From NCBI GenBank assembly GCA_963702095.1, contig OY969706.1, forward strand, positions 1,056,001 through 1,120,000: DNA of 64,000 nucleotides, read 5' to 3'. The notes under the pieces are model-generated. The model was given only the letters and a program-made list of their open reading frames with translations. It made no database searches and had not been told where the DNA came from. Within the stretch, counting starts at the first letter, position 1. Every line of letters begins with the position of its first letter. Position numbers and translations under genes: made by a program. Positions 1 to 16,029 of the stretch are shown in pieces. The stretch is from Candidatus Bathyarchaeota archaeon (GTDB lineage Archaea; Thermoproteota; Bathyarchaeia; Bathyarchaeales; Bathycorpusculaceae).

Positions 1-312
1 CTTATCTTTACTGGGCACTTTATCGACAATCAAATTGAAAATTACGAGATTCAGGCTATCTTTCTTGAAGTTAACGCTAATTTCTCTTGCCACTCGTGAC
101 GAAGCGCCCTCCTCAAGAGAATCCAAAACTTCCTCATCGATTCTTCTTACAATCTCATTTACTCTTGAATTGGAATCCAAGAAAGAATCTGGCTTGATTA
201 ACTTTGTTGCCTTAGAGGGGCTCTCAAATGAAAAAAACCCGTCAATGGTCAAACCTTTCTTTATAACTCCCAGGTTTTCATCGCGTTCAAGTTCTCTAAC
301 TTTCAACTGCAT
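1..312 (-). CDS. Hypothetical protein, truncated by window edge
   Basis: ATG at 312 on the minus strand, open to the window start (MQLKVRELERDENLGVIKKG...); the + strand ORF 35..367 is its shadow. Confidence 0.6.
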   Translation of the reverse strand, partial: MQLKVRELERDENLGVIKKGLTIDGFFSFESPSKATKLIKPDSFLDSNSRVNEIVRRIDEEVLDSLEEGASSRVAREISVNFKKDSLNLVIFNLIVDKVPSKDK

Positions 313-416
313 GCTATCTAATTGGTTGGGAATAATATATTATAATTGCGCCTTTGCATACCACTAGAATTAAATCAATCCTCAACCAATAGAAACCAAA
401 AGAAGGATTCCAAGTA

Positions 417-1106
417 ATGACTCTTATTGAGGACTACGGCTTAGATACACCCGCAAGGTCCCTATTATTAACAGTTTTATCAATAAAGGATAATGCCGAA
501 AGGACAGAAATGGATAAACTGCGCATCCAAAAAGTCCTAAGATTCTACGAGTATCTGCGGGAAAAAAAGGAAATTGATTTCTCCAATTTTAAGCTTGGCG
601 GAGTCGCATACGAACTGGAAGAAAACCGAGAAACCCTCATAGAATACGAGCTTATAGACCAGAAAAACTGCGATTTCTTCCTAACTGAAGAAGGCAAAAC
701 AGCAGCGGGCGATCTCAAAAAAACCTTCAATCACGAAGAGTACGAACAGCTAGTCTGCGCCAAAAAACTTCTAAATGACTTACCGAACGACGAATTGCTC
801 TACTTCATGTATAAGACAATTCCAGAAACACAAAAGCACTCAACCGAGTTCGACCGTCTTGAAAGGAAAAAAGAAACATTAGTTAAGAACCTATTTGCAA
901 AACGAAAAATAGACTCTGAAACAGCAATTTGTTGGCTAGATGTAAGCGAAGAGGAATTCATTAAAATGTTCCCAAAGAAGAAGCTACCCGAAAGTGCAAT
1001 TAACATGATGGCCAAAGGCTACCAAGATTGCGCCGACGAAGATTTGAAGATTGCTAAGGACTTTGAGCAGGTAGAAAACGAACTTGATGAAGAATGCGGT
1101 GCGTAG
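417..1106 (+). CDS. wHTH protein with UPF0175-like HTH and a C-terminal MazE/NdoAI-like antitoxin helix
   Basis: Overlaps the MazF gene; C-terminus MAKGYQDCADEDLKIAKDFEQVE resembles the toxin-binding helix of NdoAI-type antitoxins. Confidence 0.55.
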   Translation: MTLIEDYGLDTPARSLLLTVLSIKDNAERTEMDKLRIQKVLRFYEYLREKKEIDFSNFKLGGVAYELEENRETLIEYELIDQKNCDFFLTEEGKTAAGDLKKTFNHEEYEQLVCAKKLLNDLPNDELLYFMYKTIPETQKHSTEFDRLERKKETLVKNLFAKRKIDSETAICWLDVSEEEFIKMFPKKKLPESAINMMAKGYQDCADEDLKIAKDFEQVENELDEECGA

Positions 1107-1435
1107 AGGCAATATTTTCTGGGCAGATCTTGACCCAGTCAAGGGATCCGAGCAGGGCAAAACCAGACCAGTCTTAATCATCCAAAACGATGTTGGCAAT
1201 GAAAATAGCCCGGTAACTATAGTAGCATGTATAACAACAAATTTAGCTAAGAAAAGACTATCCAACCAACGTTTTTATTACAGCAAAAGAAACAGGGCTA
1301 AATTCTGACTCTGTAGTTTTACTTAACCAAATAAGGACACTGGATAAAACCAGGCTACAAAATAAAATAGGGTCGGTACCAAAACTAAAAATGCTTGAAG
1401 TCGGAGAAGCCCTAAAAATCAGCCTAAATCTTTAG
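1084..1435 (+). CDS. mazF: MazF/PemK endoribonuclease toxin with a 1-nt frameshift near 1252-1255
   Basis: RRGNIFWADLDPVKGSEQGKTRPVLIIQND motif; alternative frame continues YPTNVFI...DSVVLLNQIRTLDKTRL...ALKISLNL to a stop at 1435. Confidence 0.9.
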
Positions 1436-1706
1436 TCAATCACTTGTTACATTCGATTTTTCCTAATTAGCGGTAGAACACACTTAAAGTCATCTATTTT
1501 TATGGCTTATGTGGAAACAATTGCTATACTAGCGCAAGCTAAACTATCCCTAAGGTCTATGCGGAACAAACCTCTTAAGCAGCTTCTGCAGATGAAGTTA
1601 TTGCAGTTTTACGCTGCATAGGAAACATCCCTGGATGTCTTCCCCGAGAAAAGACTCGGATCATCAAGGATTCGGGCGATTTGCCCTCAATCGATGGTGA
1701 TAACAA

Positions 1707-4700
1707 ATGATGGCAAAGATAGACAAAAAAATTGGTATAATTGGAATTGGGGCTGTAGGTACTCCGCTAAAAGCAACCTGTGAAGTATATTTCAAAGAAG
1801 TAAAAGAATATGATAAGAAAGGCAACTATGACTGGCAACCAATACTTGGTTGTAACATAGTCTTTATCTGTGTTCCGACCCCTGAAGGTGCTGCCGAAAG
1901 GTTAGATTGCAGTTGCATCGAAGAAGTTCTAACGCGACTTGACAATGACCGCTTCCTTGGAATAGTAGCAATAAAAAGCACCCTCGCTGTTGGCTTTATG
2001 GATAAAGCGTGCGATTTTCATCCTAATTTGCGTTTGGTCTACAATCCAGAATTTTTAAGAGAAAAAAGCGCTTTTCAATGGACAGTCAATCCTGATAGAA
2101 TTGTAGTATCGGGTGATCTAAGCGACGCCAAAGAAGTCTTGTCAGTTTTTGTCTGGGCTGAACATGCGAAGACGATAATAACGGATCATCGGTCTGCTGA
2201 AATTGGGAAGCTCGCTCATAATGCGTTCATTGCAACAAAAGTAGCCTTTACGAACGAAATGGAGCGAATATGTCAGAAACTTGAAGCAAATGTCGAAGAC
2301 GTTATGGATGTAGTGACGTCGGATCGCCGGGTAATATCAAAAGAACATCTACAACCATACTTAGGTCCGTATGGGGGGAAGTGTGTTCCTAAAGACATTA
2401 AAGAGCTTAAGAATGCCTCAAAATCTAATTTCTTGCAAGCAGTTGAAGATGTCAATGAAGAAACCAAGAGAAGATACGGCGCTAATGAAAACAAAGTAGG
2501 ATGTAACCTAACCCCCAAGTCAGAGATTAGAATTGTAACAATAATTCCAACGCGGTCTAGGTTGACCCAATTAGAAAAAGCACTCACAAACGTAGCAAAG
2601 CAAACTCGACCACCGGATGAATTAATTGTAGTCGGAGATGAAAAGACCGATTTACCAACTGACAGAAAAGCTATGGAAAGCAAATTCATCAAAACAAAGG
2701 TATCTTGGCTTTTTAACGCAAGAACCAAAAACCTTTCGGGCGCCATAAACACAGCAACTCAATTCCTCATAAAGACGGAGATTGATCCAGAAAGAACCTA
2801 CCTTGCCCTCTTGGACGACGATGACAGATGGGCACCTGACTACCTGCAAACACTTGTTGATCGAGCGACTTCTGCACTACAAGACCTTGTTATTTCTGGG
2901 CTAATCCGCCATGAGACTGAAGGGGATGCAGGGACTAAGCAAACCATCCCCCAAGCCATCAACCAAAATATGTTCTTGGTTGGAAATCCGCACATACAAG
3001 GGTCAAACCTATTTGTGAAAATGAGCACTTTTCTGCGAGCAGGAGGGTTTGATGAAAACCTTCCAAGTTGCACTGACAGAGATTTTATGATAAGATTACT
3101 GGATCTTGGGAATATCCAATACTCTTGCATACAGAGACACCTTGTTCACCATTATGCTAGCTCAGCAAGTCGCCTTTCAAAATATGGATCCGCGAGCAAA
3201 ATCGGCGGTCTGACGAGATTTTTGCGAAAATATCAAGACCGGATGACCGCCCAAGAAAGTCTTCAATTTAAAAAAAGGGCCAAAACTCTTTTCGGATGGA
3301 CAGAAAGCATAGTGCAACAAAGTGCTGAAATATCAAGCCTTCCACCCCCTCCTAAGTCAACAAACAAACATGCCTTTCATCTGGTCGTAGGATTTACTGC
3401 TTCGCATCTATCATGCGCAGGCAAACTCTTACGCGATCTGAGTGTATTTCAGAAACGCTTTCCTCAACCGATCTCTCTTGTAATTTTAGACAATACAGAG
3501 AATAGGAAGCAGCTTGAGCAATTGGTTGCAGAAAACAAAACAGGCCTATTCAGTTCAAGATTGATCTCTGAAAGCGAGGTATACCAAGACGCTGACGCAG
3601 GCAAACTAGGGACGTTCTACGTAAACAGAGAACGAAGAAAAGGACCAAGTTATGGAAGAACGGCGCTTCATCGATTCTTGTATTTGACAGGGGTTGAGTT
3701 AGAGAATCCTGTTTTTTGGATACTTGACGACGATGTTAGATTAGACAAAATAGTATATGCCTCTAATAATCAAGTAATAATACCTGAGCAATTTCAAGAG
3801 ATTGTAGATTACCTGCTCGAACAGAAAGTCGCTATCTGCGTCGCTGGGATCATGGGCGACCCCCCACTGCCGATTGAAAGCAGCATCCGCGGCCAACTAT
3901 TGGAGCTAAGCCATTATCTGAGAAAACAAACCGGCAACGCTCACAGTGAAAAAAAGCTTGATGCTGATGCGGTTGCAGAACGCTTCCCTGACCAATACTA
4001 CGATCTGTCAACAAGCCGATATGACCATTTAGAAACCCCAATCAAAGTATCGTTAAACATAGATGGGCTGGCTTTTGCTCAATGCATAGACTCTTTGTTT
4101 GAGGGAAGAAACCAACTTAGACCTGCTCTGCCAACAAACGCATCTATCATAATGCGAGGCGGTAACACTATCGTCACTGACATAGAATGCCTTCGAACAC
4201 ACATTAACAGTTCTCCAAGGATTAACGGGGTAGAACTCCGGAGGGGTGATACAAGCTGGGTAGAGCTGAACCGATATGTTGGCGGGGAACTGGTGGGTTA
4301 TGAAAACAAACAGGTCATCAGCCTTCCTCTATTCCTCAGGCAAGAGCGAGCGCCAACATTCAAGGCGAAATTGCTGGGTGAGACGCTAGCAGCCGACCTT
4401 TTGGGAGGAGCATTCGTCAGGGCGTTTACCCACCTATTCCAAAAGAGAAGCGAGAACAGCAAAGAAATGGTGGATATCGGTAGCACCCTTGCCTTCTCAG
4501 AGGAAGATTGCCATACAGTAATAGCAGAAACAATGCGTAATCTTGAACAACGCTTAACCATTTTGCATATGAGTGCATGGCGAATAAACGGTCTCATTTC
4601 ATCGATTAGATACCAAATTGCCAATGGTAGTGGGACTACCGCAAATATGCTAAACCAGGAAGAAACCACAAGACTTTATGCGGTTTTAAAATGGATCGAC

Positions 4701-7637
4701 GAAGATCTGTCGATTCAAAGAATAAATGAATTCTCCCAAAATCTCAAGTTAGGTGTAGCTGAAGGCATTACTGACTATTTACTTACGTTCGAAAAATCTA
4801 GGCTGCAATTTGCAACTAACCTTGGTTTGAAGGCGACTGGTAAGCAAAAAAGAAAGGCTCAAGAACTTATCCAAAAGCATTTTGGGGCTGTTACTCTCGG
4901 GTTAATAGGTCAGGGTCAAGAAGGCCTTGTGTTCAGTGACGGAACTAATGCATACAAATACTTCATCAAGAATGGTATCCAAAAGAAGAGTGGGCTGCTT
5001 GACCTTATCCGGGATAAGCTTAATTCGTCAGCAGAGCTCAAGCGAATTGTTGCAGTTGAGAATCTCATTGTTGAAGATAACCAAGTTTTGTTAAGCATGC
5101 CATTGATAGAAGGAAGCCACTATAATGGCGGCAGGATAACAGAATTCCTCGAACTCTTAAGAGAATGCAAGAGGGCAGGCATAGTCACAACAAACCTTTG
5201 GCCAAAAAACCTCATCGTTGGCAAGAATGGTCTGGTTTATGTTGACATTGGAAGGAGTTTAGCGCCTTTCCGAGAAGACCTCTTCAATGAAATGTGCAAG
5301 AGAGCATACCTAACCTATAGGTGGCACTTCAGGTCCGACCTCAAAGAACTGCTTACAAAAAGCCTACAGAACCCTAATCTACCAGAACTATTCGGGTTTG
5401 AAGAATTCAAGAAATCAATCGAAAAAGTAGATGTTCATACACAAATGGATAACTACCTAATCCACGAATGTCTCAAATCAAATCCTCGGACTGTGCTAGA
5501 TTTTGGTTGTGGCACAGGCACTATAGCTGACCAACTTGCCCATTATGGCTGTAAGGTAGATTGCTATGACCCTAACCCTGATAGATTCAATAGTCGACCA
5601 CACAGAGAGAATGTAACTTTACTGCAGCTAAACGACGTGGATAAGTCGGTTAAAGATGGACAAGGCTACGACTTAGTTTTGTGTAATCTAGTGCTATGTT
5701 CAATAGAATCTGACATTGAGGTCGAAGCGATAATGCAGCGACTTAGAAGCTTGACATCGCAGAATGGGCGGGCTATTATAGGATTGTGCAATCCCCTCTC
5801 GGATGAGGTTAAAACAAGCCCAAGCCAAACAAGAAACGTTACACACAACCAGTACCACGATCAATATGCCATTACAGAAACTACGCCCAAAGGTAATCAA
5901 AGGACAGATTGGCATCGACCCATCAGTTGGTATGAACACATGGCCCACCAAGCAGGTCTTGAAATAGAAAAAACGGTCGAAGTTCCAGGCGTAGACACCG
6001 AACGACTATCCCCCAGCAGCGACCAAATTTTGTTAGTACTACGTCCGTTGATCCAACCAAAACAAATCAAAACAGTCTCTTTAATGATAAAAGCCAGTGC
6101 TATGGAATGGCAAACTATTGAAAAACAGGTTAGGCACATTGTTTCGCAACTGGAAGGACCACAGAAATTCATCGAAAAAATAGTCGTCACTGACACAGCA
6201 ACAGAAGGCTTCGCAAGACAATACGCCAAACCAAACCTGGAGAAATTCCAGCAAGCCCTCCAAAAACTCACAGAGGACCATGTCATTGATCGAATAATTT
6301 CAGCCCCAGATAATTCAGAGCAAATCAAGGAAGTTTACCAAAAATGGTTTGGTATCGAATGCTCAAAACCACGCGTTATAACCAACGGGCAACCGGCTTT
6401 TATGACACTTTATGGATTCGACCAGTGCAAAAGCAACTACATACTGCAGATGGATTGTGACTGCATATTCTTTAGACGCTCACGCTCACACGACTATCTT
6501 GGAGAAATGATTAGTCTTCTTGAAAGCGACCACACAGCAGTAACAGTTGCTTTGCCAATTCCATATGGTGAACCACAACCCTTCAAAAAAGAAAATGAAA
6601 ACACACCATTCAGGGTCGAAGTAAGGTGCTGTCTGCTAAACTTGTCAAAACTTAAATCCATGCTACCACTAGAAAACAAATTGAAAGATGGCCAGTTAAG
6701 CTTGCCCTGGCACCGCAGCTTGGATTTAGCGATATCAAAGGGAAAAGCAACTTCTTATCGAGGCGGCAATCCCCAGACATGCTTTGTGCATGTACCGAAC
6801 TTTAGGAAAATTGACGTAAACGACTGGATGAGTATACTAGATGCAGCAGAAAACGGCAGAATGATTCCAGAGCAACTAAACAAAATACAGCTAGCTGGCG
6901 AAGCGGCAGACTGGCTAGGAAAACGAAACGAAGAAATGGTTATTCTAATGCGAGGACGCAATGTCCCTCTCTCAAAAGTCCGCCGCTGTGTGGCTTCTTT
7001 GCAGGCTCAATCTTTCAAAAACTGGTCAGCAATAATAATTGACGCTAATTCGTCTAATGGACTTGAGGAATTGTACGAGTTTTCATTAAGGAAATCCATT
7101 GGACACAAAGCCACTTATGTTCGCAACCATGTTTTAATGTCTCCGATGGAAAACATCGAATACGCAACCAGTAGCATATGCATGAACCCCCAATCAATCA
7201 TACTGCACCTAGACTTAGACGATGCACTCATAGGAACAGACGCTTTAAGAAAGGTCAAAGATGCCTACGACAAAGGAGCAGACGTAACAGTAGGGTCAAT
7301 GCTTAGGACCGACAAACAAGCGGAATATCAAGTGACCTTAAAGAATCCCCGTTCTAATCGGGGCGGAAACGTTTGGCAACACCTTCGAACCTACCGAAAA
7401 TACATCTACGACACAGTGCCCAAGGAGTACTTCAAAGTTGACGGAGAATGGGTTACTCATAGCGAGGACTGGGCTTTCATGATCCCCATGGTAGAACTCT
7501 CAAAGAATCCGGTTCATATCAAAGATAAGATATACTTCTACGAGCCGTCAGAGGATAAGCCAAACAGGGATATCCAAGAAAGGGAAACCCTTATCGCTAA
7601 AATCATAGCTAAGCCATCCCTGGGGGGTAAGAATTGA
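1707..7637 (+). CDS. 1976-aa multidomain enzyme: nucleotide-sugar dehydrogenase, GT2, GT-A-like, kinase-like, SAM methyltransferase, two further GT-A/GT2 domains
   Basis: GIIGIGAVG, YNPEFLRE, GGKCVPKD (UDP-Glc/GDP-Man dehydrogenase); IIPT..R, LDDDD, GGFDE (GT2); WILDDD; IGQGQEGLVF..YK..KNL..VDIG (kinase fold); VLDFGCGTG (MTase); MDCD and LDLDD DxD motifs. Confidence 0.8.
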   Translation: MMAKIDKKIGIIGIGAVGTPLKATCEVYFKEVKEYDKKGNYDWQPILGCNIVFICVPTPEGAAERLDCSCIEEVLTRLDNDRFLGIVAIKSTLAVGFMDKACDFHPNLRLVYNPEFLREKSAFQWTVNPDRIVVSGDLSDAKEVLSVFVWAEHAKTIITDHRSAEIGKLAHNAFIATKVAFTNEMERICQKLEANVEDVMDVVTSDRRVISKEHLQPYLGPYGGKCVPKDIKELKNASKSNFLQAVEDVNEETKRRYGANENKVGCNLTPKSEIRIVTIIPTRSRLTQLEKALTNVAKQTRPPDELIVVGDEKTDLPTDRKAMESKFIKTKVSWLFNARTKNLSGAINTATQFLIKTEIDPERTYLALLDDDDRWAPDYLQTLVDRATSALQDLVISGLIRHETEGDAGTKQTIPQAINQNMFLVGNPHIQGSNLFVKMSTFLRAGGFDENLPSCTDRDFMIRLLDLGNIQYSCIQRHLVHHYASSASRLSKYGSASKIGGLTRFLRKYQDRMTAQESLQFKKRAKTLFGWTESIVQQSAEISSLPPPPKSTNKHAFHLVVGFTASHLSCAGKLLRDLSVFQKRFPQPISLVILDNTENRKQLEQLVAENKTGLFSSRLISESEVYQDADAGKLGTFYVNRERRKGPSYGRTALHRFLYLTGVELENPVFWILDDDVRLDKIVYASNNQVIIPEQFQEIVDYLLEQKVAICVAGIMGDPPLPIESSIRGQLLELSHYLRKQTGNAHSEKKLDADAVAERFPDQYYDLSTSRYDHLETPIKVSLNIDGLAFAQCIDSLFEGRNQLRPALPTNASIIMRGGNTIVTDIECLRTHINSSPRINGVELRRGDTSWVELNRYVGGELVGYENKQVISLPLFLRQERAPTFKAKLLGETLAADLLGGAFVRAFTHLFQKRSENSKEMVDIGSTLAFSEEDCHTVIAETMRNLEQRLTILHMSAWRINGLISSIRYQIANGSGTTANMLNQEETTRLYAVLKWIDEDLSIQRINEFSQNLKLGVAEGITDYLLTFEKSRLQFATNLGLKATGKQKRKAQELIQKHFGAVTLGLIGQGQEGLVFSDGTNAYKYFIKNGIQKKSGLLDLIRDKLNSSAELKRIVAVENLIVEDNQVLLSMPLIEGSHYNGGRITEFLELLRECKRAGIVTTNLWPKNLIVGKNGLVYVDIGRSLAPFREDLFNEMCKRAYLTYRWHFRSDLKELLTKSLQNPNLPELFGFEEFKKSIEKVDVHTQMDNYLIHECLKSNPRTVLDFGCGTGTIADQLAHYGCKVDCYDPNPDRFNSRPHRENVTLLQLNDVDKSVKDGQGYDLVLCNLVLCSIESDIEVEAIMQRLRSLTSQNGRAIIGLCNPLSDEVKTSPSQTRNVTHNQYHDQYAITETTPKGNQRTDWHRPISWYEHMAHQAGLEIEKTVEVPGVDTERLSPSSDQILLVLRPLIQPKQIKTVSLMIKASAMEWQTIEKQVRHIVSQLEGPQKFIEKIVVTDTATEGFARQYAKPNLEKFQQALQKLTEDHVIDRIISAPDNSEQIKEVYQKWFGIECSKPRVITNGQPAFMTLYGFDQCKSNYILQMDCDCIFFRRSRSHDYLGEMISLLESDHTAVTVALPIPYGEPQPFKKENENTPFRVEVRCCLLNLSKLKSMLPLENKLKDGQLSLPWHRSLDLAISKGKATSYRGGNPQTCFVHVPNFRKIDVNDWMSILDAAENGRMIPEQLNKIQLAGEAADWLGKRNEEMVILMRGRNVPLSKVRRCVASLQAQSFKNWSAIIIDANSSNGLEELYEFSLRKSIGHKATYVRNHVLMSPMENIEYATSSICMNPQSIILHLDLDDALIGTDALRKVKDAYDKGADVTVGSMLRTDKQAEYQVTLKNPRSNRGGNVWQHLRTYRKYIYDTVPKEYFKVDGEWVTHSEDWAFMIPMVELSKNPVHIKDKIYFYEPSEDKPNRDIQERETLIAKIIAKPSLGGKN

Positions 7638-8197
7638 ACAAACCAATCATCTCTGTCATCGGCGACACCCATATGGAGCCTGGCGGAGCCAAATGGAACA
7701 CTGCTGAAGAGCTTGGAGAAAAACTAGCAACCGCAGGATACCGCATAATGACCGGGGGGCTCGGAGACTTACCAAAAGCAATAGCTAAAGGGGCCAGAAA
7801 ATCCTCTGGCTACATAGATGGAACACTAATTGCCATTCTTCCAGGATTTGACCCTTCAATAGCCCAAGACTACGCAGACATAGTCATCGCAACAGGGCTG
7901 GATCAAGCTAGAAACCTCATCATAGCCAACTGCGACGCCATTATAGCAGTCGGTGGTGGCGCCGGTACACTATCAGAAATAGCCCTCGCATGGTCGCTAA
8001 AACGCCTAATAATAGCGTTTGATCTTCCGGGATGGAGCGGTTCATTAGGAAACCACAGAATCGATGGCAGAAAGCGCTACAATGAAATTTCAGAGGATAA
8101 AATCTATAAAATCACAACGTGTAACGGTGCCCTTGAAAAATTGAATCATTACTTGCCAAAATACACAAGACGCCACAATGGTATTAAAGTAAAATAG
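7634..8197 (+). CDS. SLOG/LOG-family protein (TIGR00725-like)
   Basis: TGG, ILPG, RNLII..DAIIAVGGGAGTLSEI motif; TTGA overlap with the upstream stop. Confidence 0.85.
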   Translation: MNKPIISVIGDTHMEPGGAKWNTAEELGEKLATAGYRIMTGGLGDLPKAIAKGARKSSGYIDGTLIAILPGFDPSIAQDYADIVIATGLDQARNLIIANCDAIIAVGGGAGTLSEIALAWSLKRLIIAFDLPGWSGSLGNHRIDGRKRYNEISEDKIYKITTCNGALEKLNHYLPKYTRRHNGIKVK

Positions 8198-8216
8198 TGT
8201 TCAATCTTATTGACTA

Positions 8217-8942
8217 TCAAGACTCTCCACTGAAAGAATCAAGTATACTCTCAGCAATTTTTCTCACTTTAAATTCTTCATCTTCTGACTGAGGCACCGA
8301 TAAGGAAATTTCAATGATGTTATCAATTCCGACAATTTGAGCATGGATGTCTTTTCCAAAAAGCTCAAAAAAGTTTGAGTTTTTGCCTTCCCATCTGTCT
8401 AGAAAGGTATTTGTTGCTCTGCTGAATTTTTCGATCTTAGACATATTAAGCTCCATTAACTTTTTCTCAAAAACCGCTCTTATACTCCACCGATTAGACA
8501 AATGGTCTATCGAGAACTTGTACCCTTCTTTTTTAGTGATAATTAACTCAGATTTATTTAGTGGCAAAGTATCGTCGAGCGTTTTTTGAGACTCAGTAAG
8601 AAGGTTAATCATGTCTTCAAAGCCTAGAAGTTGGATCAGATGAACCCCAGCAATAGCCCTAACTGGATCAATCTCCTTCTGTTCAAGAGTTTTCAGTAAT
8701 TTAGAGTGAACCCATGCTCTTCGATCTTTTACCTTCATCTCTCGAGGAGCACTTTTTCTCAACTCATAAGTGACGCTACGGATTTCTTCAGCTAGATCTA
8801 CCAAGCCTGCGAATTCTTTTTTCTCTGTAAGATATACATTCGATTTGATGATACTTTTGGCGGCATCATAGTCTCGAAGCCAAAGGTTATCCCTAATTTC
8901 ACAGATTGTACTTACTAGCTGGTTGATGTTCTGTTCACTCAT
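8217..8942 (-). CDS. Hypothetical protein coupled to the upstream nuclease gene
   Basis: 241-aa ORF; ATGA overlap with 8939..9700. Confidence 0.6.
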   Translation of the reverse strand: MSEQNINQLVSTICEIRDNLWLRDYDAAKSIIKSNVYLTEKKEFAGLVDLAEEIRSVTYELRKSAPREMKVKDRRAWVHSKLLKTLEQKEIDPVRAIAGVHLIQLLGFEDMINLLTESQKTLDDTLPLNKSELIITKKEGYKFSIDHLSNRWSIRAVFEKKLMELNMSKIEKFSRATNTFLDRWEGKNSNFFELFGKDIHAQIVGIDNIIEISLSVPQSEDEEFKVRKIAESILDSFSGES

Positions 8943-9700
8943 TTTTCAACCCTCAAGATGTAGGCGTCATAACGTCGTCTATTTTGATTTCTTGCCGCTA
9001 AGAAAACAAAACCAGTGTAAGATCTGCCTATAAGCGACTGAAGTTGCTCAAGAGCATGCGAAAGCCTATTTGGTTCTAGCGCACCGGTAAATCCCTTTAC
9101 CTCTGCTAATAATGGAACACGATAACTATTTCTACCAACGAGCGCTGAAAGTTTATGAGCGTTATCATAAACCAGAAAATCAGGAACCAAGAATGTAGCT
9201 TTCTTGCCTGGTCTCAAATGGCTAATCTCTGAAGGACTTACTCCCATCTCAGTTAGAAGAAAATATGTGAATAACGATTCTCCAATCTCACCTGAAACAT
9301 CTCCAGAAAATGTTTTCTTAACTAAACAAGTCGCACCTTTGGGAGCCCGCGAACTAGACCTATTTATCGGAAGTCTTCTTCCAAAGCTGTAATAACAAAA
9401 ATTATCGTCTATTCTACTCACTTGTTTTTCAGAAAATCTACTATTGCAAATCTCCAATGTAGCCAAGTTGACGGAAAAGTTCCTAAAAATTGTGCAAACA
9501 CTACGATTGATATTATCAATTATTTGTTTTGCATCTGACTTCAGTTGCGCCTTCAGTTTTGCCCAGAACGCTAATTGTTGAAGGATATTCAAATAGATCA
9601 ACTGTAAGCAAATGAGCAAGCGGATTGGCAGACATACTTTCTCAATTGAACTGTGTTCTTCAGAAGAGCATATTAGCTTTTGTGCGCGCCATACTTTCAA
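8939..9700 (-). CDS. PD-(D/E)XK nuclease-family protein
   Basis: GEIGE...PDF...AEVKG...A..QL motif; start codon uncertain. Confidence 0.65.
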   Translation of the reverse strand: MKVWRAQKLICSSEEHSSIEKVCLPIRLLICLQLIYLNILQQLAFWAKLKAQLKSDAKQIIDNINRSVCTIFRNFSVNLATLEICNSRFSEKQVSRIDDNFCYYSFGRRLPINRSSSRAPKGATCLVKKTFSGDVSGEIGESLFTYFLLTEMGVSPSEISHLRPGKKATFLVPDFLVYDNAHKLSALVGRNSYRVPLLAEVKGFTGALEPNRLSHALEQLQSLIGRSYTGFVFLAARNQNRRRYDAYILRVEK

Positions 9701-9882
9701 AACGTTTCTAGGACAATAGCTCAGATCTAGTAATCCAGATAATTACCATAAAGACTAATGAATTAACGGGTCAAGAGCATCTCGAATAGTGAATATCTGT
9801 TTGCTATTAGTTGCTATTTCTTGTGATCTCTCGTCGTAACTTCTTTTAAGAGTTATGAGCGCAAGCTTCGTAAACAATTGTT

Positions 9883-10425
9883 TTACTGTGTTGTTCTCTC
9901 ATGTGAACAGTTCTCGGCTAGACGCTCTGTTAGATAGTAGAATCTTGGAACTGTACGCTGTGGATTGGCAACGATTTTGCCTTTCCGTCGCAAACGAAGG
10001 ATAATTCGCCTGAATGCATCATGTTTGAGCTCTAAAAAGTCTTGATAGCTGAATTCACGCTTTATGTCGTTTGCTTTGTTTAGGATGTAGCCCTCAAGAA
10101 GAAGACTACTAAATGTTCTCTGATACTCCTTCTTTACACAACTCAAATCATAGGGCTCGCGCCGGGGCTTGCTGACCTGGTATTGGAAAACGTTGGTCTG
10201 CTGAATATTGATAACCTGTTTCCCACTGCGAACCTCCGCAGCGCCCTCAGTTCCTTTCATGAAGGCGTCTACTAAGCTTAGGGTGATGTGGCATACGTCC
10301 ATGCCGTTATCTTTGGCCCACTGGACATATTCCTTCCAGCGCTGATAATGCCGCATGTTCGGCGCCCTAAAATTACAGATCAAATTCTTGGGCTGAACAC
10401 CACTGACCGCTTTTTGCTCTTCCAC
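9883..10425 (-). CDS. Putative DNA-binding protein (RHH-like N-terminus, wHTH-like C-terminus)
   Basis: 180-aa ORF; C-terminal FRRIILRLRRKGKI...PRFYYL wing pattern. Confidence 0.5.
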   Translation of the reverse strand: MEEQKAVSGVQPKNLICNFRAPNMRHYQRWKEYVQWAKDNGMDVCHITLSLVDAFMKGTEGAAEVRSGKQVINIQQTNVFQYQVSKPRREPYDLSCVKKEYQRTFSSLLLEGYILNKANDIKREFSYQDFLELKHDAFRRIILRLRRKGKIVANPQRTVPRFYYLTERLAENCSHERTTQ

Positions 10426-10540
10426 TTGCTATCTCAGCCCCAAAACAAAAGAAAAAAATGGGTGGTGAAAAGTCAGTACAAAAGTCTCACGTGTGCGGCG
10501 GATCTGGATACGTAAAAATCGTATAAATGCAAGACATGTA

Positions 10541-10555
10541 TGGCGGGTCCGACGG
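10541..10555. repeat. Attachment-site core, a copy of the tRNA-Lys 3' end
   Basis: TGGCGGGTCCGACGG is identical to 58504-58518 and lies 45 bp from the integrase stop. Confidence 0.85.
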
Positions 10556-10600
10556 TTGTAGACCACATACACACGAAAGAATACTAGATTTTTGGGGTAT

Positions 10601-12094
10601 TTAGGTAGCCTCCTTACGGATAATCTGCTTAAGATTCTCTGCAAGAATCGATAGCTGATGATTCTGCGTCTGGTCCTGTGTTTCTGTGTGGTTGCCTCGG
10701 ATTAATGCATCTTTGGATAGGATTTCTTCTGGGTTTCCGCCCCATGCGCGTATGATCTCTTTGAGCTGGTCAATTCTGTTAGCTTGGGTCTTAGGTCTAA
10801 TCGCTAAGCCGGCTGTCTGGTAGAGGTTTCTTAGGGTTTCTATGCCTAAGCTCTGGACGTCTTCGTAAGTGTTGATTGTGTGTCCCATCATGTACTCGAT
10901 GATTTCGGTGTCGATTTTTGCTGTGCTGAGTTGGCTTCGGAAGAATTTTCTCAAGCTGTGAGTTCTAACGGTGTACATCCAACTGTTGGGTAGTTTTTTA
11001 GAGACGTTAGTGCTGACTGCTAAAGTATGTACGATGTGTCTGATGGCTTTCTCGCTGACGCCTAACACTCGGTTTGTGACTTGTTGGTTTCGGATGAGTG
11101 GGGCATCGTCTGTTAGGGTTTCTGGTGGCATTGATCTGCCGCCTCTTTGTCGGTCTTGAAGGTACAGTTTTAGCAGTTGGCATGCTTCTGCGTTTATGAA
11201 GGTGTCGTAGTCGTGGTATTTTCCTTTGGTTATGGCGGCTTCAACGTGGATGTGGATGGGTACGCGGCCTGCTTCATAGTCTTCTTTTATGTGTCGGTAT
11301 TTGAGTTTGGCAAAGGTTCCTTCACGGAATGCGCCTGAGGTTATAGCTGCGATGATGAATGCTTCTCGTACTGCGGCTTTGTCTAGCATCAATGCGATTT
11401 CTTCTGGTTTTGGCGCTCGGTCTTTGTATGTTACTTTGCGGCTTAGCGGTTCGTCGAGTTCAACTTTTTTTACTCCGTTAACTCGGTAGAAAGTTTTTAT
11501 GGATTTTATGTGGTTGCTGACTGCGCCTGAGCTGAGGTCTTGGTCTTGGAGGTGGGCTAAGTAGTCGCTTAAGAATTCGCAGTGGCTTTGCACTTTTATT
11601 GGGTCTGGGATTGCGCCGACGGGTTTGACGTCTTGGATGATTATATCGGGGTTATGGCCTAACCATTCTGCGTATTTCTTGGTTTTAGTCGTGTAAATAA
11701 TGCAGCTGGAGTGCGAGGCTGAGCAGTGTCTTAAGAAGTGTCGTGCGATTTTTAGCATGCTCTGGTACTCAAAGATGTATGGAATTATGCTTGACTGGTT
11801 TCTTAGGCATGAGCGTATGATGTAGTCTACGAGTCCTTTTTCTTGGGCAGCTAAGATTTTGCTGAGTTGGATGGTTATAGGCTGTCGGAGTTTCCAGCCG
11901 TCTATGCTTCGCTCGATGGTGACGGTGTCGCCTTGGATTATCAGCGGTAGGTTGAGGCTTTTTAGTTCTTCAACGGAGAGGTTGCGGTTGCGGGTTATAG
12001 CGGAGGCTAAAGATGCTGTGCGTTGTAGCAATCTAGTTTTCTCCTTTGGAGCTTTTTGCTCTTCGAGTTTTTCGCTCCGATGGTCGGAACGCAT
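10601..12094 (-). CDS. Tyrosine recombinase/integrase
   Basis: FREGT (R), TKGK (K), HSLRKFF (HxxR), MMGH...Y catalytic residues. Confidence 0.93.
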   Translation of the reverse strand: MRSDHRSEKLEEQKAPKEKTRLLQRTASLASAITRNRNLSVEELKSLNLPLIIQGDTVTIERSIDGWKLRQPITIQLSKILAAQEKGLVDYIIRSCLRNQSSIIPYIFEYQSMLKIARHFLRHCSASHSSCIIYTTKTKKYAEWLGHNPDIIIQDVKPVGAIPDPIKVQSHCEFLSDYLAHLQDQDLSSGAVSNHIKSIKTFYRVNGVKKVELDEPLSRKVTYKDRAPKPEEIALMLDKAAVREAFIIAAITSGAFREGTFAKLKYRHIKEDYEAGRVPIHIHVEAAITKGKYHDYDTFINAEACQLLKLYLQDRQRGGRSMPPETLTDDAPLIRNQQVTNRVLGVSEKAIRHIVHTLAVSTNVSKKLPNSWMYTVRTHSLRKFFRSQLSTAKIDTEIIEYMMGHTINTYEDVQSLGIETLRNLYQTAGLAIRPKTQANRIDQLKEIIRAWGGNPEEILSKDALIRGNHTETQDQTQNHQLSILAENLKQIIRKEAT

Positions 12095-12542
12095 ACTCAG
12101 ACTCTTGTATAGACTGATTGCTTTTTAAATTCAATTCATGATTTTCTGGTAGACGCTGCAAACCAACCTTAAGCCGTTGCAAGTCCAAAATGTCGCTTTT
12201 CAGAAGCACTAAACCTGAAGCTTTTGGGTCGCCGCCATGAAGCGTAGGCGGTCCAGCGTCTCTATCCCACGACAAAATGAGGTATAACTCGCAATCGTAG
12301 ACTAACCAGCCGACGGCTTCTCTTTTCTGCGGTTTCATCGCAACAGCCAAGTTTCGGTTGTAGAGGACATGGTCTAAATAGCGGACAAAAATCAGCTGCT
12401 GAGATGGGTTTGGGGGGCTGGTGCCTGAATCCCGTTTTAGAGATGACTTATGGTTTGTGCCTCCAATGCTGCCTGGGGGTTGTGTCGCGTTTGGTGTAAG
12501 TTCAGCCATTCCCTCCCACCCAGCAAGCCTATGATTTGACAA
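12033..12542 (-). CDS. Hypothetical provirus protein
   Basis: 169-aa ORF overlapping both neighbours; small beta-barrel-like core similar in style to 36481..36903. Confidence 0.55.
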   Translation of the reverse strand: MSNHRLAGWEGMAELTPNATQPPGSIGGTNHKSSLKRDSGTSPPNPSQQLIFVRYLDHVLYNRNLAVAMKPQKREAVGWLVYDCELYLILSWDRDAGPPTLHGGDPKASGLVLLKSDILDLQRLKVGLQRLPENHELNLKSNQSIQESEYAFRPSERKTRRAKSSKGEN

Positions 12543-12873
12543 AGTCTAAATCCGATATTCCAAGCGTATCGCACAGATTCTTGAATGCCTGCAAAGCTTC
12601 CACTTGCTTTTTTTGGTCAGAAATCGATAGAATTCTGTTTTTGAGTAGTTCAAGCTCAGCCTTCAGGTCCAACTCTTCGATAAGCTGTAGTCTTTGTTCA
12701 TGGTCGTTTAGTACAAAGTTGATTTTGTTTAGGATGGCGCCGATGTCTGCGATGATTTCCTGAACCGATACTTTTTTGGGTTTTACCAAGCCCTTTTCAC
12801 CTTGACCAACTCTCAGGCTCATCATAAAAAGTATCTGCCCCCGCAAAGTGCTCATCACTTTGAAGGGTACCAC
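12529..12873 (-). CDS. Coiled-coil hypothetical protein
   Basis: Heptad Leu pattern; co-directional with neighbours. Confidence 0.55.
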   Translation of the reverse strand: MVPFKVMSTLRGQILFMMSLRVGQGEKGLVKPKKVSVQEIIADIGAILNKINFVLNDHEQRLQLIEELDLKAELELLKNRILSISDQKKQVEALQAFKNLCDTLGISDLDFVKS

Positions 12874-13381: not shown

Positions 13382-13444
13382 AAAGTTGTTATTTCTTGGT
13401 TTTCCTTTTTCAAGGACCCTTCTATGTCATTAAGAGTTTGAGCC

Positions 13445-15201: not shown

Positions 15202-15239
15202 AGTGACCGCCCTTTTCTCCTTTTTAGACTACAATTTAC

Positions 15240-15263
15240 TTATTTGACTACTTGGTCAAATAA
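15240..15263. promoter_or_regulatory. Putative TetR operator
   Basis: Inverted repeat TTATTTGAC-N6-GTCAAATAA between the divergent ABC and TetR genes. Confidence 0.65.
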
Positions 15264-15336
15264 AAAATAGTTCATGTCCTAATAAAACTTGCCGTCGCAT
15301 AAGCAATTCTTAAATCGTGAAGAACAGTAGTATACG

Positions 15337-15939: not shown

Positions 15940-16029
15940 TATTCCAAACTGGTGATTATCCTGTCAGCCATAGTAGCGCTACTAACGGCTTGTTGGTCCT
16001 ATCGGGGTATTAAAAGAAAAATAAAAAGA

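What the first reader, a model, noticed from the sequence alone, without database searches (positions are those of the whole stretch)
1707..8197. Seven-domain glycosylation/phosphorylation/methylation megaenzyme with a SLOG partner
Seen: one uninterrupted 1976-aa ORF combining a nucleotide-sugar dehydrogenase (apparently lacking its usual C-terminal domain), about four GT-A domains, a kinase-like domain with a non-canonical loop (TTNLWPKN) and a SAM methyltransferase. It has no obvious TM helix and is translationally coupled to a SLOG/LOG gene. It lies among toxin-antitoxin and nuclease genes, not in a cell-surface cluster. Inference: an assembly line for a modified nucleoside or small glycoside, or for nucleic-acid hypermodification, perhaps in defence.
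Basis: partly seen in the sequence, partly recalled or inferred. Interest (0 to 1): 0.76.

Follow-up and report, generated by a model that had tools for sequence, protein, structure and literature searches.

The report
Giant mobile sugar-assembly enzyme with SLOG partner
A 1976-residue soluble archaeal protein joins a sugar dehydrogenase, four sugar-transferring domains, a kinase-like domain and a methyltransferase; with a small nucleotide-binding partner it forms a mobile gene cassette of a large, uncharacterised family whose product is still unknown.

Summary
Window 1707-7637 is one open 1976-aa frame. It holds a UDP-glucose-dehydrogenase-like part without the C-terminal domain, four GT-A domains, a kinase-fold domain with TTNLWPKN in place of the HRD loop, and a SAM methyltransferase. 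It has no hydrophobic helix. Its stop overlaps the TTG start of a SLOG cluster-4 gene (7634-8197).

It belongs to a large unnamed family: at least 531 proteins, and 459 clusters at 50% identity. The family occurs in archaea, Dehalococcoidia, Poribacteria and other bacteria. The dehydrogenase fusion is confined to the closest Bathyarchaeia relatives.

SLOG lies directly downstream in 20 of 55 loci (16 of 18 archaeal). Elsewhere it is fused to the core, or to a kinase-methyltransferase, deacetylase or SDR protein. Other family members carry fused histidine phosphatase or CE4 deacetylase. Neighbours are nucleotide-sugar enzymes, never exporters.

The gene was not found in 200 other genomes of its class. 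It sits beside an integrase and occurs on three contigs filed as viral. Defence genes are about three-fold enriched nearby (27/140 against 10/144 frames).

Best reading: a self-contained, horizontally mobile assembly line for a methylated, transiently phosphorylated glycoside or oligosaccharide. Nucleic-acid modification has no support, and a defence role stays open.

The parts
1707..2510 (+). Residues 1-268: short UDP-glucose-dehydrogenase-like module. It has the NAD-binding domain, the central domain and the GGKC catalytic-Cys motif, but no C-terminal UDP-binding domain.
   Evidence: Pfam PF03721 and PF00984 only. TIGR03026 scores 157.7 bits, under the 189.8 cut-off. It aligns to residues 74-301 of 3gg2. 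It is a separate 267-371-aa gene upstream in 9 loci and is fused only in the window and L006.
2520..3341 (+). Residues 272-545: GT-A domain 1, family GT2, with the DxD motif LDDDD at 369-373.
   Evidence: PF00535 at 83.5 bits. D370-D373 are invariant in A1.
3363..4406 (+). Residues 553-900: GT-A domain 2. It matches no Pfam family. Its fold is closest to the GT75 NDP-pyranose mutase MtdL. DDD lies at 674-676.
   Evidence: Model pLDDT 85. MtdL Z 17.9, rmsd 3.5, 299 aligned residues, against Z about 13.9 for the next GT-A folds. No Pfam or PDB hit by sequence profile. The ESM Atlas gives DUF6271 and RGP as leads.
4407..4853 (+). Residues 901-1049: all-helical spacer between GT-A domain 2 and the kinase-like domain.
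   Evidence: DSSP of the model shows helices at model residues 348-515.
4854..5441 (+). Residues 1050-1245: protein-kinase-fold domain. It has the G-loop GQGQEG (1068), K1084, N1168 and D1180, but Asn1163 stands where the catalytic Asp of the HRD loop would be.
   Evidence: Z 13-14 to Rad53, AMPK and Pim1. Profile hits to CDKL2 and CDKL5 at E 5e-4. Of 252 family domains, the HRD position is N in 237 and D in 13.
5454..5981 (+). Residues 1250-1425: class I SAM-dependent methyltransferase, with DFGCGTG at 1265.
   Evidence: Pfam Methyltransf_12/23/11/25. PDB profile hit 3g5l at E 1e-11.
6063..6926 (+). Residues 1453-1740: GT-A domain 3, with the DxD motif DCD at 1583-1585.
   Evidence: PF00535 E 1e-4. 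It aligns with the first GT-A domain of the chondroitin polymerase K4CP. D1583 and D1585 are invariant.
6927..7631 (+). Residues 1741-1975: GT-A domain 4, family GT2, with LDLDD at 1835.
   Evidence: PF00535 E 5e-5. Z 20-20.6 with rmsd 2.3-3.0 to RmlT, WrtF, TarS and PmHS2.
7634..8197 (+). SLOG cluster-4 protein (187 aa, TTG start). It keeps the LOG-like motifs TGG, R93-N94 and GGGAGTLSE.
   Evidence: PF18306 at 100 bits. Alignment A5 gives the invariant residues. It lies directly downstream of the core in 20 of 55 loci. It is fused to the core in L084 and in P0261-P0266 and P0270.
7634..7637 (+). TTGA: the SLOG start codon overlaps the stop codon of the large ORF. GGGGGT lies 7 nt upstream.
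   Evidence: Sequence read.

Best explanation
The ORF and the SLOG gene form a self-contained, horizontally mobile cassette. I read it as building a tailored glycoside or short glycan from nucleotide sugars in the cytoplasm or at the inner face of the membrane.

Shown:
- Four GT-A domains each keep an acidic DxD-type metal motif.
- An intact SAM methyltransferase is present.
- A kinase-fold domain keeps its ATP/Mg residues but has Asn in place of the catalytic Asp.
- The short dehydrogenase keeps the catalytic Cys but lacks the UDP-binding domain.
- SLOG is tied to the core by adjacency and by independent gene fusions.
- Relatives add histidine phosphatase, CE4 deacetylase, a second methyltransferase, an SDR epimerase/dehydratase and a sugar nucleotidyltransferase.
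- No exporter is conserved near the gene.

Inferred:
- GT-A domain 1 or 2 starts on a small phosphorylated or nucleotide-type acceptor, or domain 2 supplies an NDP-furanose as GT75 mutases do.
- The C-terminal GT-A pair adds further sugars, as two-site polymerases do.
- The dehydrogenase module makes or introduces a uronic acid.
- The kinase-like-methyltransferase unit caps or tailors the product. If the kinase-like domain transfers phosphate at all, the acceptor is probably already anionic.
- A histidine phosphatase removes a transient phosphate where it is present.
- SLOG, a LOG-like pocket for ribose-5-phosphate ligands, binds or processes a nucleotide-like handle of the substrate, or holds the tailoring enzymes together.

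The cassette is an accessory trait of variable, defence-rich genome regions.
For: Domain content.

Conserved motifs: LDDDD 369-373, DDD 674-676, D1583/D1585, D1836/D1838/D1839, K1084, N1168, D1180 and the methyltransferase GxGxG are invariant in 27 sequences.

Family size: 531 hits. There are 459, 291 and 108 clusters at E 1e-3, 1e-10 and 1e-30 for the family-specific middle part.

Conserved neighbours:
- The short dehydrogenase is a separate upstream gene in 9 loci.
- An SDR epimerase/dehydratase occurs in 18 loci.
- A histidine phosphatase occurs in 4 loci and a sugar nucleotidyltransferase in 3.

Fusions in relatives: His_Phos_1 in 3 proteins and CE4 deacetylase in 10 of the 26 scanned. L082 carries the His phosphatase fusion and an extra methyltransferase.

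SLOG:
- It lies directly downstream in 20 of 55 loci.
- It is fused to the core in L084 and in 7 database proteins.
- It is fused to a kinase-methyltransferase unit, to CE4, to an SDR and to a kinase in others.

The protein is soluble.

Accessory and mobile character:
- It was found in 0 of 200 other genomes of the class.
- There is no DNA match for 1-7900 in 5 same-genus genomes.
- An integrase lies at 10601-12094.
- Three IMG/VR contigs and one plasmid carry relatives.
- The gene tree disagrees with taxonomy inside both domains of life.
Against: - No product, acceptor or activity was tested. All steps after domain assignment are inference.
- The tandem GT-A pair resembles polymerases of exported polysaccharides (K4CP, PmHS2, LARGE1), and those enzymes are soluble too. 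Absence of a TM helix and of a linked exporter therefore does not exclude a surface product.
- The short dehydrogenase lacks its nucleotide-binding domain and may be inactive or have another substrate.
- Asn at the HRD position argues against canonical kinase activity. In WbdD the equivalent Asp is essential (passages of PMC3482155 read).
- Whether GT-A domain 2 is a transferase or a mutase was not resolved, because no residue-level structural alignment was available.
- SLOG is missing next to the gene in 33 loci of the Dehalococcoidia-type clade, so it is not essential to the core chemistry there. Ten such genomes each carry an unlinked homologue.
Confidence: 0.5

Rival explanations
1. Surface-glycan reading. 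The protein is a peripheral-membrane polymerase-plus-terminator, comparable to WbdA/WbdD, WbbB or K4CP. It extends a lipid-linked glycan that unlinked host machinery exports. The mobile cassette changes the cell surface and so the receptors used by viruses.
For: - The tandem GT-A fold is closest to K4CP, PmHS2 and LARGE1.
- A kinase-fold plus methyltransferase unit and a helical spacer recall WbdD (passages of PMC3482155 read).
- UDP-glucose dehydrogenase, GT2 enzymes and a methyltransferase are also the parts of archaeal N-glycan pathways. The AglM model hits at E 1e-26; the pathway comparison itself is recalled.
- CE4 deacetylase fusions occur in relatives.
- The gene lies in variable regions.
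Against: - No flippase, ABC exporter, oligosaccharyltransferase or polyprenyl-phosphate transferase recurs near the gene. Among 58 loci, no neighbour family beyond SLOG, the SDR and the dehydrogenase is found in more than 7 loci.
- The catalytic Asp that WbdD needs is Asn here.
- The domain order differs from WbdD.
- Histidine phosphatase and SLOG have no known place in such pathways (recalled).
Confidence: 0.28
2. Active defence or counter-defence reading. The cassette modifies nucleic acid, nucleotides or viral proteins by glycosylation and methylation, or makes an antiviral nucleoside-like glycoside. SLOG would act as nucleotide sensor or N-glycosidase.
For: - PADLOC-positive ORFs within 5 kb number 27/140 against 10/144 in control regions (p 0.0025). 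Loci with any hit number 13/17 against 7/17.
- Neighbours include AbiE, a dCTP deaminase, type I-U Cas, GmrSD-like proteins, Dnd/Ssp-like proteins, RM systems and LmuB.
- Relatives occur on contigs filed as viral, one of them with a phage-type DNA methylase.
- A distant relative on a plasmid lies next to GTP cyclohydrolase II.
- SLOG domains sense nucleotide signals in Thoeris (abstract of PMC7272460 in the listing).
- R93 and E115 of the LOG-type motifs are invariant.
Against: - No PADLOC model matches the core beyond its methyltransferase, and none matches SLOG.
- There is no DNA- or RNA-binding domain, and the apparent HhH-GPD fusion was an artefact.
- The conserved partners are nucleotide-sugar enzymes, a sugar deacetylase and a phosphatase.
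- The control was mostly bacterial. The per-locus difference is weak (p 0.08), and the sponge-type genomes are defence-rich everywhere.
- Accessory glycan genes also gather in variable islands (recalled).
Confidence: 0.12
3. Housekeeping-type cytoplasmic carbohydrate reading. The cassette makes a compatible solute or polymethylated storage or regulatory oligosaccharide. It would follow the logic of glucosyl-3-phosphoglycerate synthase plus histidine-phosphatase-type GpgP and the methylglucose polysaccharides of mycobacteria.
For: - GT-A domain 2 also resembles mannosyl-3-phosphoglycerate synthase (Z 13.9, 276 aligned residues).
- Histidine phosphatase is fused or adjacent.
- A methyltransferase is present.
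- The protein is soluble.
- The pathway comparison itself is recalled, not tested.
Against: - The distribution is very patchy: 0 of 200 other genomes of the class.
- The context is mobile and defence-rich.
- The SLOG and pseudokinase parts have no counterpart in those pathways.
Confidence: 0.08

Closest known systems
Two-site GT-A polymerases: E. coli K4 chondroitin polymerase K4CP (2z86/2z87), Pasteurella heparosan synthase PmHS2 and LARGE1
   Same: The C-terminal 550 residues are predicted as two consecutive GT-A domains, each with a DxD motif. K4CP is the top Foldseek hit (E 3e-18). It aligns over both domains with Z 22 and 411 aligned residues, but rmsd 20.9, so the domain arrangement differs. 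These enzymes are soluble or peripheral, and a link to UDP-glucuronate supply is plausible.
   Different: Sequence identity is 12-15%. Here the pair is only the tail of a seven-domain protein. No capsule or export genes lie nearby. Polymerase activity was not tested.
WbdD of E. coli O9a (kinase plus methyltransferase chain terminator, PMC3482155)
   Same: A eukaryotic-type kinase fold is joined to a class I SAM methyltransferase and a helical region, within a glycan-assembly context.
   Different: The order is reversed: helical-kinase-methyltransferase here, methyltransferase-kinase-coiled coil in WbdD. The catalytic Asp (D351 in WbdD, essential) is Asn in 237 of 252 family domains. WbdD was not among the 50 best structural matches listed.
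GT75 NDP-pyranose mutases and reversibly glycosylated polypeptides (MtdL, 7xps; PMC9937993)
   Same: This is the best structural match of GT-A domain 2 (Z 17.9, 299 of about 370 residues, including the helical C-terminal region). It stands about 4 Z units above other GT-A folds. A DDD motif is present. A dehydrogenase and an SDR epimerase/decarboxylase-type enzyme nearby would fit a UDP-pentose route (recalled pathway).
   Different: There is no sequence-level match to RGP or any Pfam family in 37 members and none to MtdL by profile. Equivalents of R159, R257 and H287 could not be checked. Here it is a domain of a larger enzyme.
UDP-glucose 6-dehydrogenases (for example archaeal AglM, TIGR03026)
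   Same: The NAD-binding and central domains, the NPEFL motif and the GGxCxPKD catalytic-Cys motif are kept.
   Different: The whole C-terminal UDP-binding domain is missing and the N-terminal domain is shortened. The score is below the family cut-off. This short form recurs as a separate gene in this system.
LOG / SLOG superfamily: TIGR00725 and PF18306 'SLOG cluster 4'; LOG phosphoribohydrolases; the SLOG sensor domain of Thoeris ThsA
   Same: PF18306 scores well above its cut-off. The LOG-like GGxGTxxE and Arg motifs are invariant.
   Different: It scores below the TIGR00725 and TIGR00730 cut-offs. No ligand or activity is known. Here it is tied to a glycan-assembly enzyme, a link I found in no paper.

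Membership tests
UDP-glucose/GDP-mannose dehydrogenase family | NAD-binding N-terminal domain and central dimerisation domain | tested here: met
   PF03721 E 2.9e-12 (profile positions 59-181 of 187 only) and PF00984 E 1.8e-22.
UDP-glucose/GDP-mannose dehydrogenase family | Catalytic cysteine motif GGxCxPKD | tested here: met
   GGKCVPKD at 223-230 aligns with GGSCFPKD of 3gg2.
UDP-glucose/GDP-mannose dehydrogenase family | C-terminal UDP-sugar-binding domain and full-length family score | tested here: not met
   No PF03720 hit, and GT2 starts at residue 276. TIGR03026 scores 157.7, under the 189.8 cut-off.
Glycosyltransferase family 2 (GT-A) | PF00535 match above cut-off with a DxD motif | tested here: met
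   Domain 1 scores 83.5 bits against a 23.3 cut-off and has LDDDD. Domain 4 scores 23.7 bits with fold Z about 20. Domain 3 scores 22.8 bits, just under the cut-off.
GT75 (RGP / NDP-pyranose mutase) | GT75-type fold including the helical C-terminal region | tested here: met
   MtdL Z 17.9, rmsd 3.5, 299 aligned residues, the top six rows.
GT75 (RGP / NDP-pyranose mutase) | Sequence membership (Pfam RGP) and the autoglycosylated Arg with its partner residues (R159, R257, H287 of MtdL) | tested here: inconclusive
   None of 37 members hits PF03214 and there is no profile hit to MtdL. R728 and Q730 are invariant at a similar spacing from the DDD motif, but no residue-level structural alignment was available.
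Protein-kinase-like superfamily | Kinase fold with G-loop, beta-3 Lys, Mg-binding Asn and DxG Asp | tested here: met
   Z 13-14. K1084 is present in 249, N1168 in 250 and D1180 in 248 of 252 domains.
Protein-kinase-like superfamily / WbdD-type glycan kinase | Catalytic Asp of the HRD loop (D351 of WbdD, essential) | tested here: not met
   Asn1163. The position is N in 237 and D in 13 of 252 family domains. WbdD data come from passages of PMC3482155.
Class I SAM-dependent methyltransferases | Rossmann-type methyltransferase domain with a GxGxG SAM motif | tested here: met
   Five Pfam methyltransferase models are above cut-off. DFGCGTG lies at 1265.
SLOG cluster 4 (PF18306) / TIGR00725 | Family model above its curated cut-off | tested here: met
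   PF18306 scores 100.1 against a 26.3 cut-off. TIGR00725 scores 95.6, under its 106.9 cut-off, so the NCBIfam equivalog is not met.
LOG phosphoribohydrolases (TIGR00730) | Family score, PGGxGTxxE motif and activity on nucleoside 5'-monophosphates | tested here: inconclusive
   TIGR00730 scores 37.9, under its 96.35 cut-off. The motif GGGAGTLSE and R93 are invariant in 16 sequences. Activity cannot be tested here.
Known anti-phage defence systems (PADLOC-DB 2.0) | Match of the core or SLOG protein to a defence-system model | tested here: not met
   Only the methyltransferase domain hits mad2 (E 3e-12), and SLOG has no hit.

The most novel reading that the evidence does not exclude
The cassette is a new kind of mobile, virus- and island-borne conflict module. 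It assembles a capped oligosaccharide on a nucleotide or ribose-5-phosphate handle that the SLOG domain recognises or cleaves.

That would explain why SLOG is fused in turn to the core, a kinase-methyltransferase unit, a deacetylase and an SDR. The Asn-for-Asp kinase domain would act on an anionic phosphate acceptor. The short dehydrogenase would oxidise a sugar already attached, not a UDP-sugar. The product would act in virus-host conflict as an antiviral metabolite, a signal or a surface mask.
Probability: 0.15. Interest if true: 0.85.

Novelty: new variant of a known kind. Interest (0 to 1): 0.6.

Why it matters
The family is large and spans archaea and several bacterial phyla, yet databases call it only 'glycosyltransferase'. 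I found no paper on it.

It packs almost a whole glycan pathway into one soluble polypeptide and adds three unusual parts:
- a GT75-like domain outside plants and actinomycete antibiotic pathways;
- a conserved kinase-fold domain that keeps ATP-binding residues but lacks the catalytic base;
- a dehydrogenase without its nucleotide-binding domain.

The repeated fusion of SLOG cluster 4 to parts of this system gives that orphan family its first functional context. If the product is surface-bound, the cassette is a ready-made way to re-coat a cell. If it is soluble or nucleotide-linked, it is new chemistry in virus-host conflict. Either case can be tested directly by expression and mass spectrometry.

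Tried and rejected
- Complex prediction of the C-terminal GT pair (A3) with SLOG (A5) gave no answer (score 0.00). It counts neither way.
- The look-up of sequencing runs listed no RNA holder and only small shares (at most 0.10) in DNA runs. I did not lay reads.
- The search for related loci with the single protein found nothing. The alignment was needed.
- phmmer of the kinase-like part against PDB gave only designed PPR repeats, through summed weak repeats. This is spurious.
- The profile of GT-A domain 2 against PDB gave only PDE4 at E about 0.03-0.08. This is spurious.
- The apparent HhH-GPD-core fusion in L060 is an artefact of a masked run of N. The near-identical L059 has a stop between the two genes.
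- I found no flanking direct repeats that could be att sites in 1-16000.
- G038:C55 in a same-genus genome holds only a remnant of about 200 nt of the SLOG gene at 72% identity, and no core.
- The idea that SLOG replaces the missing C-terminal domain of the dehydrogenase is weakened. SLOG occurs without the short dehydrogenase in L005, L016/L017 and L022, and the short dehydrogenase occurs without SLOG in L014.
- Membership in the WbdD type is rejected on the catalytic Asp.
- The 2015 paper that defined SLOG clusters is not held. What I say of it is recalled.
- The search of earlier findings by sequence found nothing.


Full report
**What is there**

Window 1707-7637 (+) is one open frame of 1976 codons. 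A 187-codon frame follows at 7634-8197. Its TTG start overlaps the TGA stop as TTGA, and GGGGGT lies 7 nt upstream.

Sequence profiles give these domains:
- The NAD-binding and central domains of the UDP-glucose/GDP-mannose dehydrogenases, without the C-terminal domain. TIGR03026 scores below its cut-off.
- A GT2 domain at 279-431.
- A class I SAM methyltransferase at 1252-1383.
- Two weak GT2 matches at about 1528-1629 and 1756-1879.

The small protein is SLOG cluster 4 (PF18306, 100 bits). It scores below the cut-offs of TIGR00725 and of LOG proper.

The dehydrogenase part aligns to residues 74-301 of a 450-residue enzyme (3gg2). It keeps NPEFL and the GGxCxPKD cysteine motif. The highest 19-residue hydropathy mean is 1.33, so no membrane helix is predicted.

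**Folds of the unassigned parts**

I folded two pieces with alignments of 37 natural sequences taken from related loci. Residues 545-1245 gave pLDDT 85. Residues 1425-1975 gave pLDDT 92.

Residues 553-900 form a GT-A domain. Its best matches are the six entries of MtdL, the GT75 NDP-pyranose mutase (Z 17.1-17.9, rmsd 3.5-3.7, 298-305 aligned residues). These lie about four Z units above mannosyl-3-phosphoglycerate synthase, cellulose and hyaluronan synthases and other GT-A enzymes at Z 13-14. In the MtdL paper (sections read: abstract and two of the three parts of the Results, PMC9937993) MtdL itself reaches only Z 15.4 to its nearest GT2 folds.

By sequence the domain matches nothing. None of 37 members hits Pfam RGP or any other family convincingly, and the profile finds no PDB entry. 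The ESM Atlas lists DUF6271 (0.94) and RGP (0.91) clusters as look-alikes; these are leads only. I could not test whether the domain is a transferase or a mutase.

Helices fill model residues 348-515. A kinase fold follows (Z 13-14 to Rad53, AMPK and Pim1). The family profile also touches CDKL2 and CDKL5 at E 5e-4.

The C-terminal piece is a pair of GT-A domains. The chondroitin polymerase K4CP is the best Foldseek hit (E 3e-18), followed by RmlT, LARGE1 and heparosan synthase 2. The last domain alone reaches Z about 20 to RmlT, WrtF, TarS, PmHS2 and SpsA.

**The kinase-like domain**

The Mg-binding Asn is present in 250 and the DxG Asp in 248. The position of the catalytic Asp of the HRD loop is Asn in 237 and Asp in 13.

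The 13 with Asp are mostly proteins of about 610 residues made of SLOG, kinase and methyltransferase, plus a few forms of about 1150 residues.

In WbdD, the known kinase-methyltransferase that caps the E. coli O9a glycan, the equivalent D351 is essential (passages of PMC3482155). The domain here therefore probably binds ATP but is not a canonical kinase. It is not a member of the WbdD type, although the kinase-methyltransferase pairing is alike.

**The family**

A word-indexed search found 531 relatives. The 120 best are mostly 1700-1750 residues long and cover 86% of the query, that is, everything but the dehydrogenase. Nine of the 120 (P0003-P0011, 65-87% identical) carry the dehydrogenase domains.

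An exhaustive search with residues 541-1231, the family-specific middle, found 459 clusters at 50% identity (291 at E 1e-10, 108 at 1e-30). All names on record are generic ('glycosyltransferase', 'SAM-dependent methyltransferase').

In one-genome-per-species contigs, 196 stretches encode relatives. The 58 loci kept come from these groups:
- Bathyarchaeia, Methanomicrobiales, Methanomassiliicoccaceae, Thermoplasmata and Nitrososphaerales;
- many Dehalococcoidia;
- Poribacteria, Gammaproteobacteria, a Phycisphaera MAG and others.

A tree of 41 full-length cores splits an archaeal clade from a bacterial clade. Bathyarchaeia are nested among Thermoplasmata, and Poribacteria and Gammaproteobacteria among Dehalococcoidia (midpoint root, FastTree, no test of alternative topologies).

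**Conserved partners**

I called frames in all loci and clustered them. I then checked by tblastn, which corrected two loci where an antisense frame had hidden the SLOG gene.

Of 55 loci with at least 400 nt beyond the core, SLOG lies directly downstream in 20:
- 16 of the 18 archaeal-labelled loci (missing in L007 and L014);
- L052, L055, L058 and L062.

It is absent in all 33 loci of the Dehalococcoidia-type clade. Ten genomes of that clade each hold an unlinked homologue at 39-49% identity. The window's genome has only the linked copy.

The other recurring neighbours are:
- The short dehydrogenase (267-371 residues), a separate gene directly upstream in 9 archaeal loci. It is fused in the window and L006.
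- Full-length dehydrogenases (433-457 residues) next to the core in five bacterial loci.
- An SDR epimerase/dehydratase in 18 loci.
- A histidine phosphatase in L010, L015 and L016/L017.
- A sugar nucleotidyltransferase in L047, L050 and L061.

Apart from these, no neighbour family recurs in more than 7 of the 58 loci. No flippase, glycan ABC exporter or oligosaccharyltransferase was seen.

**Fusions**

Of 26 variant proteins scanned, three carry a C-terminal histidine phosphatase and ten a C-terminal CE4 polysaccharide deacetylase. Eleven forms of about 1200 residues lack the terminal GT pair.

On three contigs filed as viral in IMG/VR:
- L082 has core plus fused phosphatase, an extra methyltransferase gene and SLOG.
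- L083 has core and SLOG.
- L084 has SLOG fused to the C-terminus of the core in one 1799-codon frame without N, followed by a short dehydrogenase gene.
- L084 also has a phage-type DNA methylase. I did not otherwise verify that these contigs are viral.

A search for longer SLOG proteins found 22 (four sequences read):
- seven core-SLOG fusions;
- proteins of about 610 residues, of which P0267, read, is SLOG-kinase-methyltransferase;
- three proteins carrying CE4 and SLOG, with SLOG N-terminal in P0280;
- one SDR-SLOG protein;
- one SLOG-kinase protein with a canonical HTDLKPEN loop.

These independent fusions are the strongest evidence that SLOG belongs to this system. In 16 linked SLOG proteins the LOG-type motifs are invariant: TGG, R93-N94 and GGxGTLxE.

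**Mobility and surroundings**

The family profile found no match in 200 other genomes of the same class, 11 of them of the same genus.

DNA of window 1-20000 matches five same-genus genomes only in three places. These are the integrase region (10541-12438, up to 90%), two small neighbouring frames and the ABC-transporter genes. Nothing matches in 1-7900.

Around the cassette lie:
- a frameshifted mazF (1084-1435);
- a frame like candidate defence gene PDC-M19A (417-1106);
- three unassigned frames on the minus strand;
- a 497-residue tyrosine recombinase.

A distant relative of 1116 residues lies on a mobilizable Pseudoalteromonas plasmid next to GTP cyclohydrolase II, an asparagine-synthase-like gene and an arylamine N-acetyltransferase.

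**Defence-island test**

Forty-two loci have at least 3 kb on both sides. I scanned the first 17 in id order. I left out L029 (same genome as L024), one 2385-residue frame (size limit) and one core fragment. That left 140 frames of 120 residues or more within 5 kb of the module. They were scanned against PADLOC at E 1e-10.

Result: 27 frames in 13 loci hit. The hits include AbiEi/AbiEii, a dCTP deaminase at E 1e-150, type I-U Cas, GmrSD-like proteins, capH/capP, type I, II and IIG RM, DndB, SspD-like, LmuB and ZorD/DpdE-like helicases. Four loci had none.

As a control I took 17 regions of 10 kb at coordinates fixed beforehand. Fourteen came from seven of the same bacterial genomes, two from two more, and one from the window's genome. 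There, 10 of 144 frames in 7 regions hit.

Fisher's test gives p 0.0025 for frames (odds ratio 3.2) and p 0.08 for loci. If generic hits are set aside (a post hoc choice) the loci give p 0.015.

The control is mostly bacterial while 7 of the 17 test loci are archaeal. Relatives are not independent, and frames were called crudely. I read this as real but moderate enrichment. It fits either a defence role or an accessory gene living in variable regions.

**How it most likely works**

Shown: the domain set, the conserved metal and cofactor motifs, the partners and fusions, and the mobility.

Inferred: a cytoplasmic or membrane-face assembly line that uses nucleotide sugars.
- The partners (dehydrogenase, SDR, nucleotidyltransferase) supply a uronic acid or a sugar derived from it.
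- The four GT-A domains add three or four sugars, or three add sugars and the GT75-like one supplies a furanose donor.
- The methyltransferase, and in relatives the deacetylase and a second methyltransferase, tailor the product.
- The histidine phosphatase implies a phosphorylated intermediate.
- The kinase-fold domain, with Asn for Asp, may bind ATP as a regulator, or may act on an acceptor that needs no base, such as a phosphate.
- SLOG has a LOG-type pocket and is fused to one tailoring enzyme after another. It most simply either recognises a ribose-phosphate or nucleotide handle on the substrate or assembles the enzymes.

I put about 0.5 on this reading. The rivals and their weights:
- 0.28 on a lipid-linked, exported surface glycan made by the same chemistry;
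- 0.12 on a direct intracellular defence function;
- 0.08 on a housekeeping-type cytoplasmic carbohydrate.

**Comparison and novelty**

Each part has known relatives: UGDH, GT2, GT75, protein kinases, class I methyltransferases and SLOG. Multi-domain glycan enzymes are also known (K4CP, WbdD; WbbB is recalled).

The following are not in the papers I could search (supplements not consulted):
- this combination of domains;
- the family-wide Asn in the kinase loop;
- the dehydrogenase without its nucleotide domain;
- the GT75-like domain in archaea and Chloroflexota;
- the repeated SLOG fusions.

I file it as a new variant of a known kind, a multi-domain glycan-assembly enzyme. The bolder possibility that it is a new conflict module remains open.

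Noticed in passing
window 1084-1435 (+), with 417-1106 (+): mazF is split by a frameshift. The N-terminal 74 codons hit PemK/MazF, and the C-terminal part continues in another frame to 1435. The upstream 229-aa frame, which overlaps its start, resembles the candidate defence gene PDC-M19A (E 8e-9).
   Followed up: partly
window 24573-28683 (+): An 842-aa prokaryotic Argonaute (PADLOC pAgo E 5e-38, weak Pfam Piwi) follows a 529-aa frame with a DUF2797-like part. The two overlap by 8 nt, so this is a likely two-gene pAgo system about 18 kb from the cassette.
   Followed up: no
window 9867-13313 (-): A 497-aa tyrosine recombinase (10601-12094) and small flanking frames (9883-10425, 12529-13275) recur at 75-90% DNA identity in same-genus genomes at unrelated places. 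They look like a mobile element. A relative of the 180-aa frame also lies beside the core in the Bathyarchaeia locus L007.
   Followed up: partly
window 19678-20617 (-): A PIN_12 domain frame overlaps a winged-helix frame that resembles TrmB and Csa3. This is a possible toxin-antitoxin or CRISPR-associated regulator pair.
   Followed up: no
window 20948-23662 (-): A 904-aa helicase hits many HamB (Hachiman) models. It also has archaeal helicase domain 4 and HhH motifs, so it is more likely the housekeeping Hel308.
   Followed up: no
L084 7992-14152: On an IMG/VR contig of 40 kb (GC 44%), the core and SLOG are one 1799-codon frame, followed by a 258-aa short dehydrogenase. The gene order differs from the window, and a phage-type DNA methylase lies 1.4 kb further on.
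   Followed up: partly
L100 (NZ_CP032092.1 116683-123205): A Pseudoalteromonas donghaensis mobilizable plasmid carries a 1116-aa distant relative (26% identity over GT-A domain 2 to the kinase-like part). It sits in an apparent operon with ribA, an asparagine-synthase-related gene and an arylamine N-acetyltransferase.
   Followed up: no
proteins P0267-P0274 and P0279 (not in the window): Proteins of about 610 residues carry a SLOG domain, and their kinase-like domain keeps the catalytic Asp (TDFQPKN) that the giant enzymes have replaced by Asn. P0267, read in full, has the order SLOG, kinase-like domain, methyltransferase.
   Followed up: partly
L081 (G038:C55) 2589-3004: A same-genus genome holds only a remnant of about 200 nt of the SLOG gene (72% identity) next to unrelated genes. 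This suggests loss of a former cassette.
   Followed up: partly
L017 7709-9223; L019 19679-21193; L024 16589-21285: Strong defence genes lie beside the family in other genomes. They are a dCTP-deaminase-type gene (E 1e-150), a type I-U Cas5/6 gene, and a GmrSD-like enzyme with a type II RM pair.
   Followed up: partly
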